NCBI GenBank assembly: GCA_049968235.1
Contig: JBMFRC010000007.1
Span: 64,001 to 128,000 of the forward strand
Direction: 5' to 3'
From: Candidatus Hydrogenedens sp.
GTDB lineage: Bacteria; Hydrogenedentota; Hydrogenedentia; Hydrogenedentales; Hydrogenedentaceae
DNA length: 64,000 bases
Below the pieces are notes generated by a model, which saw nothing but the letters and a program-made list of their open reading frames with translations, did not search any database and was not told the origin of the DNA. Both the position numbers and the translations under genes were made by a program. Positions 10,951 through 12,906 of the stretch are shown in pieces. Numbering within the stretch: the stretch's first letter is position 1; each line of letters begins with the position of its first letter.

Positions 10951-12066
10951 TTATTTAGATGGCACAGATTGTTGAAGTAATGTTAACATTTGTCTATCTA
11001 CTTTATGCCCCTCCCAATCCTCATACTCGACATCACTTCTACTCGAATCAATCGGACCAAAAGGTCCTACAAAATTCCACATTGACCAACCCCACCCTGC
11101 TTCATGGAATAAATTCAATGTATCTGCCAGCCATGCCATTACTGCCTTATGGGGTGTTTGATTAAATGCACCAAACTCTCCTACAAAAACAGGGACACCT
11201 TTATCCTCAAGAGCTTTCCATGGCTTTATTACTTGCTCACGAATACCTTCTTTGTCCCACAGAAATTCATCTTCTTTATAGGGATATTCAGGGATAGGCA
11301 CATTATCCCATACTCCTACCCACGATGCTTTATAGTGTGTAATTGCGAAGGGTTTATACATATGCAAGTTTGCAATAATCCCCAAATCAGAAAGTTCAAT
11401 CGGTGGAAAGGCTCCCCAAAATCTTCCATCACAATGAATAGGTCTTTCTTCATCTACATTACGGATAACCTCTACCAGTTTACCTATAACATTCTTATGT
11501 TTTTCTGGAGATATATTTCCAGGCTCATTCAAAAGATTAAAACTTAACTGCATGGGAGAAATATCTTTATATCGTTTTGCAAAAGTTTGCCAGTGATAAG
11601 TACAAATTTTTTGTGCTTCTTCATCATTCCACAAATTTATCGTCTCTTCAGGTTTCGCTACTGTCCAGCCCGGAGCACGGTGAAAATTCAAACAAACATG
11701 GATGTTATACTTTTTACCAAATTCAATAGTTTTGTCTATTTCCTTTAAATCCTCTTCCCGTATCTGATATAAAGATTCTTCATCGGTCCAGCACCGATAA
11801 TCCATAGGTAATCGCACAAAATTAAAGCCTAAACGATGAATAAGAGCAAATTCTTCCTCCTGAAATGGCTTTTTTCCATGAACCATAAAATAATTCAATA
11901 AATTAAAACCAAAAAATTTACCCCATATATTTTTCCCTTCATCTACTAACTTTTCATCAATCCTTTTTTCCCTTTGATTATCTACCCCACCTGATGAAAT
12001 CAATTTAGATATATGAAACATCGGATATGTAGAAAACAATTGTCTTAAAAAGGTTCTCCGCTCCAT
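10951..12066 (-). CDS. glycoside hydrolase family 5 (cellulase-like), TAT/Sec-exported
   Basis: FNFVRLPMDY, LLNEPG (acid/base), VGEFG (nucleophile). Start moved to MERRTFLRQ (complement of 12064-12066); the track's longer ORF reads through the hairpin repeat. Confidence 0.8.
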   Translation of the reverse strand: MERRTFLRQLFSTYPMFHISKLISSGGVDNQREKRIDEKLVDEGKNIWGKFFGFNLLNYFMVHGKKPFQEEEFALIHRLGFNFVRLPMDYRCWTDEESLYQIREEDLKEIDKTIEFGKKYNIHVCLNFHRAPGWTVAKPEETINLWNDEEAQKICTYHWQTFAKRYKDISPMQLSFNLLNEPGNISPEKHKNVIGKLVEVIRNVDEERPIHCDGRFWGAFPPIELSDLGIIANLHMYKPFAITHYKASWVGVWDNVPIPEYPYKEDEFLWDKEGIREQVIKPWKALEDKGVPVFVGEFGAFNQTPHKAVMAWLADTLNLFHEAGWGWSMWNFVGPFGPIDSSRSDVEYEDWEGHKVDRQMLTLLQQSVPSK

Positions 12067-12090
12067 AAAAATACCTCTAAAATTTAAAAA

Positions 12091-12122
12091 TAGCACATAG
12101 CGGAATTTTACGCTATGTGCTA
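12091..12122 (-). terminator. palindromic hairpin, 12-bp arms and 8-nt loop, followed by T-tract on the minus strand; copy 1 of an exact 39-bp direct repeat
   Basis: TAGCACATAGCG-GAATTTTA-CGCTATGTGCTA. Minus-strand reading gives hairpin then TTTTTAAATTTT. Identical copy at 12157-12188. Confidence 0.55.
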
Positions 12123-12156
12123 TCTTGATGAATGATATTAATTCAATTTTAAAAAA

Positions 12157-12188
12157 TAGCACATAGCGGAATTTTACGCTATGTGCTA
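12157..12188 (-). terminator. copy 2 of the same palindromic hairpin plus T-tract, 66 bp from copy 1
   Basis: The unit AAAAATAGCACATAGCGGAATTTTACGCTATGTGCTATC occurs at 12086-12124 and again at 12152-12190, 39/39 identical. Confidence 0.55.
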
Positions 12189-12207
12189 TCTATAAACTTT
12201 TGAATAA

Positions 12208-12330
12208 TTAATCTACGGGTTCTTTCCCTGTTAATGCAGAAAAGAAATCCGTTATAATTTTGCTTACAAAACCTACTAAATAATCAATAACTTTAACAAT
12301 GATATCTTTTAGCATTAAATTAAAATCCAT
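12208..12330 (-). CDS. small amphipathic peptide, 40 aa (MDFNLMLKDIIVKVIDYLVGFVSKIITDFFSALTGKEPVD)
   Basis: Hand-translated. Perfect SD (AAGGAGGG) 8 nt upstream of the ATG. Paralog of the adjacent 36-aa ORF. Below the ORF-track length cutoff. Confidence 0.5.
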   Translation of the reverse strand: MDFNLMLKDIIVKVIDYLVGFVSKIITDFFSALTGKEPVD

Positions 12331-12356: not shown

Positions 12357-12467
12357 TTAGGCTGATGTTGTTAAACCAAAAAGCGCTAATAATTGGTCTG
12401 TCAGCCAACCGGCTAAAAACTTTACAAATACACTGACAATGATGTTTAGGATGTCTGCTAAAATCAT
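12357..12467 (-). CDS. small hydrophobic/amphipathic peptide, 36 aa (MILADILNIIVSVFVKFLAGWLTDQLLALFGLTTSA)
   Basis: Hand-translated. SD GAAAGGAG 7 nt upstream of the ATG. Candidate extended -10 box (TGTATAAT) about 90 nt upstream. Confidence 0.5.
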   Translation of the reverse strand: MILADILNIIVSVFVKFLAGWLTDQLLALFGLTTSA

Positions 12468-12906
12468 TACTTACTCCTTTCATGTTGTTTATTGGTACAA
12501 TAAATATAACCCCGTACATTGGAGTTATATATTTTTTATAAATATACAAGCAAAACCACCAATCGTTACACATTATACAAAAATATTATATAAAACTCAA
12601 AAAATATTTTTAAATTAAAATTCAAATAATATATGATTTTTAATCTTTTGTGTGCTAATTGCAAGTAATTTTATTCTCATTTATATACGCAAAAATTATG
12701 CCATTATACTTTTAAATATGTTGTTTAAATATTTGTGTTCAAAAATAATAATTTATGAATATATTCCCCTGAAAGTTCATATATATCTTTCCTTTTTGTA
12801 ATCATGTAGGATAAAAACAACATCTATGTATGGAACTTAGATAGAACTAACAAAGTCTTTATTTATAAATTTGTATAATATCTCTATAAACAAAAAGGAA
12901 TAAAAA

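What the first reader, a model, noticed from the sequence alone, without database searches (positions are those of the whole stretch)
12086..12190. Exact 39-bp duplicated palindromic hairpin units between the peptide genes and the GH5 start codon
Seen in sequence: AAAAATAGCACATAGCGGAATTTTACGCTATGTGCTATC occurs twice (12086-12124 and 12152-12190), 66 bp apart. Each unit is a perfect 12-bp-arm inverted repeat with an 8-nt loop. On the minus strand each is followed by a T-tract, so they read as two tandem intrinsic terminators after the peptide operon. Copy 1 ends only 25 nt upstream of the GH5 start codon (12066), leaving no room for an independent GH5 promoter. GH5 expression would then require read-through of two terminators, an attenuator- or antiterminator-like arrangement. 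Alternatively the 66-bp spacing (about 6 helical turns) fits a pair of operator sites for a dimeric regulator. A third reading is a small dispersed REP/MITE-like repeat.
Basis: partly seen in the sequence, partly recalled or inferred. Interest (0 to 1): 0.7.

Follow-up and report, generated by a model that had tools for sequence, protein, structure and literature searches.

The report
Duplicated terminator hairpin before GH5 gene
The two identical stem-loops between a pair of small peptide genes and a cellulase-family gene look like ordinary transcription-terminator hairpins; relatives carry one structurally conserved hairpin at the same spot, and this species has gained a second copy.

Summary
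The 39-mer occurs exactly twice, 66 bp apart (12086-12124 and 12152-12190). Each copy is a perfect 13-bp stem (not 12) with an 8-nt loop, followed by a U-tract on the minus (coding) strand.

The window comes from a Candidatus Hydrogenedens species. Ten diverged lineages (GH5 52-82% identical) share the order promoter, pep1, pep2, GH5. Eight of them have a strong hairpin between the pep2 stop and the GH5 ribosome-binding site. It is single in every lineage except the window species. The stem keeps pairing through compensatory changes.

The best reading is an intra-operon intrinsic terminator. It closes a short, probably abundant peptide transcript and lets a fraction of polymerases read through into GH5. 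The only conserved strong promoter lies upstream of pep1. The second copy is a recent, species-specific addition that makes a tandem terminator.

Three readings are not supported:
- A regulated attenuator: there is no alternative antiterminator pairing and no Rfam family.
- An operator pair: relatives have one site, arm spacing varies, and pairing rather than sequence is conserved.
- A dispersed REP/MITE: no other copy was found, and the site is orthologous across lineages.

One point remains unexplained: the spacer between the copies is not derived from the flanks. Overall this is an ordinary feature of low interest.

The parts
12152..12190 (-). Hairpin B, transcribed first. Stem 12189-12177 / loop 12176-12169 / stem 12168-12156, then U-tract 12155-12151. 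It starts 18 nt after the pep2 stop codon.
   Evidence: Exact repeat. 13-14 bp stem at about -19.6 to -21.2 kcal/mol plus T-tract. Its 5' flank is homologous to the 5' flank of the single hairpin in L014 and L026.
12086..12124 (-). Hairpin A, proximal to GH5. Stem 12123-12111 / loop 12110-12103 / stem 12102-12090, then UUUU AAA UUUU at 12089-12079.
   Evidence: Exact repeat. Reported by the terminator scan. Its 3' flank, including the GH5 SD, is homologous to the 3' flank of the single hairpin in relatives.
12125..12151 (-). 27-nt A/T-rich spacer between the two 39-mers. Its origin is unknown.
   Evidence: No significant similarity to either flank in either orientation (p 0.34-0.74). Found only in the same-species loci L012 and L013. 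No viral match.
12208..12330 (-). pep2, a 40-aa amphipathic peptide gene with SD AAGGAGGG.
   Evidence: ORF. Called in public assemblies. Purifying selection, pS 0.33-0.76 against pN 0.02-0.17. Orphan family.
12357..12467 (-). pep1, a 36-aa peptide gene, apparently a paralogue of pep2 (by-eye alignment only), with SD AAGGAG.
   Evidence: ORF. Conserved in relatives with pS 0.38-0.93 against pN 0.05-0.22.
12572..12600 (-). Candidate operon promoter, TTGAGT-17-TATAAT, preceded by a conserved A/T-rich tract.
   Evidence: Promoter scan, 10/12. The orthologous site scores 10-12/12 in most relatives, and it is the only conserved strong promoter-like site upstream of GH5.
12504..12530 (-). Sequence-conserved stem-loop in the 5' UTR of pep1: ATATAACTCC-N7-GGGGTTATAT.
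   Evidence: 93% of cells paired but no covariation.
10951..12066 (-). GH5 (cellulase family) gene with a twin-arginine-type N-terminus MERRTFL. SD AGAGGT at 12078-12073.
   Evidence: Pfam PF00150, E 5e-28. Orthologues at 52-82% identity are always preceded by the peptide genes.

Best explanation
The hairpins are Rho-independent (intrinsic) transcription terminators inside an operon.

Proposed mechanism: a strong sigma-70-type promoter upstream of pep1 drives a short transcript encoding two small conserved peptides. Most polymerases stop at the hairpin plus U-tract just after pep2. This gives a short, hairpin-protected and probably abundant peptide mRNA. A minority read through into GH5 and the genes behind it. 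The GH5 ribosome-binding site starts right after the U-tract, and no promoter of its own is detectable. The hairpin therefore sets a fixed high peptide-to-enzyme ratio rather than acting as a switch.

This single-hairpin design is ancestral in the Candidatus Hydrogenedens clade. In the species of the window the 43-nt hairpin unit was recently copied once. The resulting tandem terminator should lower read-through further, roughly to the square of the single-terminator read-through.

Shown here: the anatomy, the conservation, the covariation, the single copy in relatives, and the lack of alternative pairing. Inferred: actual termination, its leakiness, and the dependence of GH5 on read-through.
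For: - Anatomy: a 13-bp perfect stem with 6 G-C pairs, an 8-nt loop, and 4-5 U immediately 3' on the coding strand, 18 nt after the pep2 stop.
- The same window contains other canonical hairpin-plus-T terminators at gene ends with similar energies and scores, so this organism appears to use the signal.
- Ten lineages share pep1-pep2-GH5. Eight have a strong hairpin (-17.8 to -21.7 kcal/mol) at the same place, with the U-tract running into the GH5 SD 20-23 nt before the start codon.
- Among six alignable hairpin sequences (five lineages; the window contributes both copies), 97.4% of cells pair and 3 of 13 pairs show double (compensatory) changes, with G-U intermediates. Partner-slid controls give 17-54% pairing. 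RNAalifold recovers the same helix independently.
- L019, L029 and L030 carry hairpins of different sequence at the same position.
- The best promoter-like site (9-12 of 12; 10-12 in six of the eight lineages with upstream sequence, including a perfect TTGACA-17-TATAAT in L029) lies upstream of pep1. Only non-orthologous 8/12 matches occur between pep2 and GH5.
- The duplication is derived. The window species (window, L012, L013) has two copies. Its nearest relatives L014 and L026 (81-82% GH5 identity) and all others have one. The pep2-to-GH5 spacer is 141 nt against 75 nt, exactly 66 nt longer than in L014.
- Internal terminators behind small structural-peptide genes are documented elsewhere, for example sagA and lsbB (PMC4786598). 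Internal terminators that lower downstream coverage without stopping it are mapped in E. coli (PMC4161252).
Against: - There are no transcript data, so termination and read-through are inferred.
- The U-tracts are short and interrupted by A. Classical d-scores are only marginally positive (3 and 8) and slightly negative in two relatives.
- L031 lacks a hairpin and L017 has only a weak one, so the element is not indispensable.
- The promoter consensus of this phylum is unverified. A weak 8/12 site with its -10 in the loop of hairpin A exists.
- The spacer between the copies is not flank-derived, so the mechanism of duplication is unexplained.
Confidence: 0.68

Rival explanations
1. The hairpins are efficient, full terminators, and GH5 is transcribed separately from a promoter that overlaps the last hairpin or its U-tract. 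The peptide genes and GH5 would then be independent units.
For: Weak promoter-like matches (8/12) have their -10 in the hairpin loop in the window (TTCATC-16-TAAAAT) and in L014. The 3' arm plus tail reads TGCTATTTT, loosely like an extended -10 (read from the sequence).
Against: These matches are not orthologous or conserved across lineages, and they fall below the scan threshold. 8/12 matches are common in 31% GC DNA. The synteny pep1-pep2-hairpin-SD-GH5, with 20-23 nt between stem and start codon, is kept across 52-82% GH5 identity, which fits co-transcription.
Confidence: 0.15
2. The hairpin acts mainly after transcription. It would be a 3' stabiliser that blocks 3'-5' exonucleases after processing of a full-length operon mRNA, giving a stable peptide segment and an unstable GH5 segment. 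In the duplicated form, the two identical palindromes could refold into one long duplex that RNase III cuts.
For: The two copies can pair with each other: the nested duplex is -53.3 kcal/mol against -50.6 for two local hairpins. The output (more peptide than GH5) would be the same as for partial termination. Intercistronic stabilising hairpins are established elsewhere (own knowledge: malE-malF REP, puf operon).
Against: The conserved U-tract directly after the stem on the coding strand in most lineages is the hallmark of termination and is not needed for a stabiliser. The nested fold exists only in the one species with two copies. Co-transcriptional folding favours the local hairpins (inference).
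Confidence: 0.12
3. A regulated attenuator. A trans-acting RNA-binding antiterminator, or ribosome behaviour on pep2, would decide whether polymerase passes the hairpins into GH5 in response to substrate.
For: A terminator directly upstream of a glycoside hydrolase gene recalls the BglG/SacY/LicT systems (own knowledge). The loops are A/U-rich in most lineages.
Against: There is no alternative antiterminator pairing: 0 to -3.2 kcal/mol in six lineages. No Rfam family reaches its gathering score, and the sub-threshold hits are mostly to long stem-loop families such as miRNA precursors (plus the trpB motif and some sRNAs). The pep2 stop lies 18-24 nt before the stem, too far for a terminating ribosome to cover it (inference). 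The peptides are under purifying selection along their whole length, unlike leader peptides. Loop sequences are not conserved.
Confidence: 0.06
4. A small dispersed palindromic element (REP/MITE-like) that has inserted a second time next to an existing copy.
For: Only the 43-nt hairpin unit is duplicated, at 42/43 identity, while the spacer is unrelated to the flanks. A plain tandem duplication does not predict this.
Against: No other copy or half-copy exists in 64 kb. The hairpin sits at an orthologous site in at least 8 lineages and evolves in place by compensatory change. In JGI metagenomes the relatives' version occurs only at this locus. There are no hits in viral contigs. The hits in 185,579 reference genomes are 11 single hairpins in unrelated taxa, about the number expected by chance for this pattern (my estimate).
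Confidence: 0.05
5. Two double-stranded DNA operator sites, 66 bp apart, for a dimeric repressor of GH5.
For: Perfect palindromes with a phase of about 6.3 helical turns (sequence).
Against: Relatives have one site. Changes in the arms are compensatory, so pairing rather than sequence is conserved. The distance between the shared outer arms ATAGCACA/TGTGCTAT is 18 nt in the window and 5 nt in L030. The site lies about 400-500 bp downstream of the only conserved promoter.
Confidence: 0.02

Closest known systems
Intrinsic terminator placed directly behind a small structural-peptide gene inside an operon (sagA in the streptolysin S cluster; lsbB leaderless bacteriocin), as summarised in PMC4786598
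   Same: A single upstream promoter. Small peptide gene(s) come first. A rho-independent hairpin follows right after them. The larger downstream genes have no evident promoter of their own. The expected result is an excess of peptide transcript.
   Different: The downstream genes here are a Tat-signal GH5 and other secreted proteins, not modification, export or immunity genes. The peptides are net-anionic orphans with no bacteriocin family match. Nothing has been tested experimentally.
Internal (partial) terminators in bacterial operons mapped by RNA-seq or Term-seq, e.g. E. coli sdhCDAB-sucABCD (PMC4161252), and archaeal internal termination sites (PMC10450193)
   Same: A terminator within a co-directional gene string that lowers, but need not abolish, downstream transcription.
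   Different: Here the evidence is comparative sequence only.
Tandem terminators such as rrnB T1-T2 and engineered double terminators (own knowledge)
   Same: Two intrinsic terminators in series within about 70 nt.
   Different: Those sit at the end of a unit to ensure full stop. Here the pair precedes a gene that apparently needs read-through. The two copies are identical, so they can also pair with each other.
REP/BIME and other dispersed palindromic repeats
   Same: Palindromic units of about 35-40 nt in intergenic DNA, sometimes in pairs, and sometimes acting as terminators or mRNA stabilisers.
   Different: REPs are imperfect palindromes present in tens to hundreds of copies. Here only this locus carries the sequence in every data set that could be searched.

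Membership tests
Rho-independent (intrinsic) terminator | G+C-containing stem-loop, typically 5-14 bp with a loop of 3-8 nt | tested here: met
   13 perfect pairs (6 G-C), 8-nt loop, -19.6 kcal/mol for the bare hairpin.
Rho-independent (intrinsic) terminator | U-rich tract immediately 3' of the stem on the transcribed strand | tested here: met
   UUUUUAAAA (B) and UUUUAAAUUUU (A). Hairpin A passes the scan's criterion of 5 T in 8. The tracts are short, which suggests incomplete efficiency.
Rho-independent (intrinsic) terminator | Located just downstream of a stop codon, in the orientation of the gene | tested here: met
   Hairpin B starts 18 nt after the pep2 TAA. The distance is 18-24 nt in relatives.
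Rho-independent (intrinsic) terminator | Pairing maintained in evolution | tested here: met
   97.4% of cells paired, 3 of 13 pairs with compensatory double changes, slid controls 17-54%. RNAalifold gives the same helix. Non-homologous hairpins sit at the same site in L019, L029 and L030.
Rho-independent (intrinsic) terminator | RNA 3' ends map to the U-tract | not testable with these tools
   No transcriptome of this organism was available.
Regulated transcription attenuator (leader-peptide, riboswitch or protein-mediated antitermination) | Alternative antiterminator structure competing for the terminator's 5' arm | tested here: not met
   Allowing the 5' arm to pair with the 100 nt upstream gains 0 to -3.2 kcal/mol in six lineages.
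Regulated transcription attenuator (leader-peptide, riboswitch or protein-mediated antitermination) | Match to a described cis-regulatory RNA family | tested here: not met
   Nothing reaches an Rfam gathering score. The sub-threshold hits are mostly to long stem-loop families such as miRNA precursors (plus the trpB motif and some sRNAs).
REP/MITE-like dispersed repeat | Many copies at unrelated sites in the same genome | tested here: inconclusive
   No other copy or half-copy in the 64-kb window. Relatives' hairpins occur only at this locus in metagenomes. The rest of this species' genome was not available.
REP/MITE-like dispersed repeat | Presence or absence polymorphism rather than orthologous conservation | tested here: not met
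   One hairpin is orthologous and evolving in place in at least 5 alignable lineages. Only the second copy is lineage-specific.
Paired operator sites for a dimeric DNA-binding regulator | Conserved half-site sequence and spacing, at or near a promoter | tested here: not met
   Single site in relatives. Compensatory rather than sequence conservation. Outer-arm spacing is 18 nt against 5 nt. The site lies about 400-500 bp downstream of the conserved promoter.
CRISPR mini-array (repeat-spacer-repeat) | Repeats flanking a spacer of foreign origin, with repeats not orthologous to a single-copy terminator | tested here: not met
   The spacer has no match in viral contigs. Relatives carry a single orthologous hairpin at the site.

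The most novel reading that the evidence does not exclude
The 43-nt hairpin was copied as a discrete module without its flanks. This could mean that terminator hairpins in this lineage spread by a dedicated mechanism, such as a low-copy mobile palindrome or hairpin-templated insertion. Alternatively, the two identical palindromes could form a conformational switch in read-through RNA: two local terminators versus one nested long duplex, only 2.7 kcal/mol apart. That switch would control processing and expression of the secreted GH5 relative to an orphan family of abundant amphipathic peptides.
Probability: 0.06. Interest if true: 0.5.

Novelty: new member of a known kind. Interest (0 to 1): 0.2.

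Why it matters
The result mainly helps annotation. It shows that pep1-pep2-GH5 in Candidatus Hydrogenedens is probably one transcription unit with an internal terminator. That explains why GH5 has no promoter and predicts a large excess of peptide transcript over enzyme transcript. The species-specific doubling is a small natural example of how terminator strength inside an operon can be changed by copying a hairpin. The more interesting biology is likely the orphan peptide pair that is always linked to the secreted GH5, not the hairpins themselves.

Tried and rejected
- Genome-wide copy search. The stem pattern in 185,579 reference genomes gave 11 single hairpins in unrelated taxa and not the source genome. 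A degenerate stem pattern in JGI metagenomes found only the relatives' orthologous locus, plus one unrelated terminator in a Firmicute-like contig (L027).
- Viral contigs gave no hit for the hairpin or the spacer. This, together with the single orthologous hairpin in relatives, rejects a CRISPR-like mini-array.
- Rfam gave no hit at its gathering thresholds.
- Exact-protein look-ups of the window GH5 and of P0005 returned nothing.
- The spacer was tested as a flank-derived duplication product and showed no significant similarity.
- The longer GTG ORF starting at 12162, which would put the hairpins inside GH5, was rejected. The SD and the conserved twin-arginine N-terminus sit at the ATG at 12066, and the extension is not conserved in relatives.
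- The 5' UTR hairpin showed no covariation.
- pep1 is too short for the homologue search.
- Literature searches for tandem or leaky terminators gave only general parallels.

Full report
**Observation**

The 39-mer AAAAATAGCACATAGCGGAATTTTACGCTATGTGCTATC is present exactly twice, at 12086-12124 and 12152-12190. No other match appears in the 64 kb even with three mismatches, and none appeared in 100 shuffles. The repeat finder extends the unit to 43 nt with one mismatch, at a period of 66.

Each unit is a perfect inverted repeat with 13-bp arms (ATAGCACATAGCG / CGCTATGTGCTAT) around an 8-nt loop.

All neighbouring genes are on the minus strand. Their order there is:
- pep1 (12467-12357, 36 aa)
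- pep2 (12330-12208, 40 aa)
- hairpin B (12190-12152)
- a 27-nt spacer
- hairpin A (12124-12086)
- the SD AGAGGT (12078-12073)
- the GH5 start codon at 12066

On that strand the stems are followed by UUUUUAAAA (B) and UUUUAAAUUUU (A). Each hairpin folds at about -19.6 to -21.2 kcal/mol, which places both among the three strongest hairpin-plus-T structures in the window.

Two independent MAG assemblies of the same species (L012 and L013) carry the identical double arrangement, with 1 SNP in 941 nt. The duplication is therefore real.

**Source organism and relatives**

The GH5 protein's nearest database relative (reported at 100% identity; an exact-sequence look-up found no identical record) is annotated Candidatus Hydrogenedens sp.. 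Exact-protein look-ups and one metagenome scan retrieved the homologous locus from nine further lineages. Their GH5 identity to the window is:
- L014/L015/L025/L028: 82%
- L026: 81%
- L016 and L022: 74%
- L017/L018: 69%
- L019-L021: 68%
- L029: 58%
- L030: 53%
- L031: 52%

In all of them small peptide gene(s) immediately precede GH5 on the same strand: the pep1/pep2 pair in most lineages, two unrelated small ORFs (42 and 59 aa) in L029, and only pep2 visible on the truncated L030 contig. What follows GH5 differs between lineages.

**A single hairpin is ancestral**

The distance from the pep2 stop to the GH5 start is 141 nt in the window. It is 75 nt in L014, which is exactly 66 nt shorter, and 61-102 nt elsewhere. 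Reading the sequences shows one hairpin at that position in L014, L026, L016, L022, L019, L029 and L030. L017 has a weak imperfect hairpin and L031 has none.

The 5' flank of window hairpin B and the 3' flank of window hairpin A, including the GH5 SD, are homologous to the two flanks of the single hairpin in L014 and L026. The window species is sister to L014 plus L026, and all outgroups have one copy. One copy is therefore ancestral, and the second is a gain specific to this species.

**Selection acts on pairing, not on sequence**

The alignment holds the two window copies with L014, L026, L016 and L022.
- 97.4% of the 78 cells across the 13 stem pairs form standard pairs.
- Three pairs show changes on both sides: A-U to G-C; A-U, G-C, G-U and U-G; and U-A to C-G with a U-G intermediate.
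- Sliding the 3' partners by 1-3 columns gives only 17-54% pairing and no double changes.
- RNAalifold predicts the same helix without being told it.

L019 and L029 have hairpins of unrelated sequence at the same place. L030 shares only the outer arm ATAGCACA/TGTGCTAT, closed by a 5-nt loop.

Synonymous divergence between the window and L014 in the adjacent peptide genes is 0.33-0.38. By contrast, the stems differ at 4 of 26 positions, all of which preserve pairing.

A U-rich tail follows the stem in most lineages. It runs straight into the GH5 SD, 20-23 nt before the start codon.

**Promoters**

The best sigma-70-like site in the region lies upstream of pep1: TTGAGT-17-TATAAT at 12600-12572 in the window. 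Orthologous sites score 9-12 of 12 in the eight lineages whose upstream sequence was available (10-12 in six of them), including a perfect TTGACA-17-TATAAT in L029. A conserved A/T-rich tract lies upstream of it.

Between pep2 and GH5 there are only scattered, non-orthologous 8/12 matches. Any transcript that starts at the conserved promoter must pass the hairpin(s) to reach GH5.

**No evidence for a switch**

When the terminator's 5' arm is allowed to pair with the 100 nt upstream, it gains only 0 to -3.2 kcal/mol in six lineages. The terminator helix itself is about -20 kcal/mol. No Rfam family reaches its gathering score. The sub-threshold hits are mostly to long stem-loop families such as miRNA precursors (plus the trpB motif and some sRNAs), and reflect the long nested fold the two palindromes can form together.

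The peptides are not mere leader peptides. Both have strong SDs and are under purifying selection over their whole length (pS 0.33-0.93 against pN 0.02-0.22).

**Best explanation**

The element is an intra-operon intrinsic terminator. It ends a short peptide transcript and lets a fraction of polymerases continue into GH5, fixing a high peptide-to-enzyme ratio.

Documented parallels include:
- the rho-independent terminator behind sagA in a single-promoter cluster (PMC4786598)
- the terminator-dependent expression of the leaderless bacteriocin LsbB (PMC4786598)
- internal terminators that reduce but do not interrupt downstream coverage in E. coli operons (PMC4161252)

In the window species the terminator is doubled, which should reduce read-through further. 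Termination, leakiness and the dependence of GH5 on read-through are inferences, because no transcript data were available. The short, A-interrupted U-tracts and marginal classical scores fit partial efficiency but do not prove it.

**Rivals**

- A separate GH5 promoter overlapping the last hairpin cannot be excluded, because this phylum's promoter rules are unverified. Nothing conserved supports it.
- A purely post-transcriptional stabiliser role would give the same output but does not explain the conserved U-tract.
- The operator reading fails on four counts: single copy in relatives, compensatory evolution, variable arm spacing, and distance from the promoter.
- The REP/MITE reading fails on orthology and on the absence of other copies wherever a search was possible. 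The rest of this species' genome could not be scanned.
- A CRISPR-like repeat-spacer-repeat was considered and rejected (together with the orthologous single hairpins).

**What remains unexplained**

A plain tandem duplication should leave a spacer made of flank sequence. The 27-nt spacer has no significant similarity to either flank in either orientation (p 0.34-0.74). It occurs only in the same-species loci. The two hairpin units, meanwhile, are 42/43 identical. How the hairpin was copied as a module is open.

The two copies can also pair with each other. The nested fold is -53.3 kcal/mol against -50.6 for two local hairpins. This is probably only a thermodynamic curiosity, since the first hairpin forms during transcription.

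**Verdict**

The attenuator-switch, operator and dispersed-repeat readings are not. This is a new instance of a known kind of element with a small lineage-specific twist, and it is of low interest.

Noticed in passing
window 12208-12330 (-) and 12357-12467 (-): pep1 (36 aa) and pep2 (40 aa) appear paralogous by eye (no alignment was run), are amphipathic and net-anionic, and have strong SDs. They are under clear purifying selection. They have no Pfam or NCBIfam match, and pep2 falls in a single 50%-identity cluster among 1.84 billion representatives. pep2 is always found just upstream of a Tat-signal GH5 in Candidatus Hydrogenedens relatives, with pep1 before it wherever the contig extends that far. 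Their function is unknown and probably more interesting than the hairpins.
   Followed up: partly
window 12504-12530 (-), with promoter at 12572-12600 (-): The pep1 5' UTR contains a sequence-conserved stem-loop, ATATAACTCC-N7-GGGGTTATAT, in six lineages (93% paired, no covariation). Its 5' arm ACUCC is also complementary to the pep1 SD GGAGU. It could be a 5' stabiliser or an SD decoy. The promoter TTGAGT-17-TATAAT and an upstream A/T-rich tract are also conserved.
   Followed up: partly
L027 1984-2028: An unrelated metagenome contig (acidic lipoprotein and cupin genes, Firmicute-like) ends a gene with AAAAATAGCACATGGTG-N9-CACCATGTGCTATTTTT. Its arms are nearly identical to the Hydrogenedens hairpin. 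This is presumably a chance or convergent terminator.
   Followed up: partly
window 12060-12215 (-): Because the two palindromes are identical, read-through RNA can fold either as two local hairpins (-50.6 kcal/mol) or as one nested long duplex (-53.3 kcal/mol). The nested fold explains the spurious sub-threshold miRNA-precursor hits in Rfam.
   Followed up: yes
L017, L019, L022, L030, L031 downstream of GH5: In the more distant lineages GH5 is followed about 50 nt later by two proteins of about 660-860 aa, some with Rax2/DUF5122/Flg_new_2 hits. In the window, L014 and L016 it is followed instead by an epimerase and a family-2 glycosyltransferase. Only peptide(s)-GH5 (pep1-pep2-GH5 in most lineages), together with the divergently oriented 657-aa glycosidase where upstream sequence is available, forms the conserved core.
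   Followed up: no
window 12125-12151: The 27-nt spacer between the hairpin copies is unrelated to the flanks, to the rest of the window, to viral contigs and to relatives' loci. Its source is unknown.
   Followed up: yes
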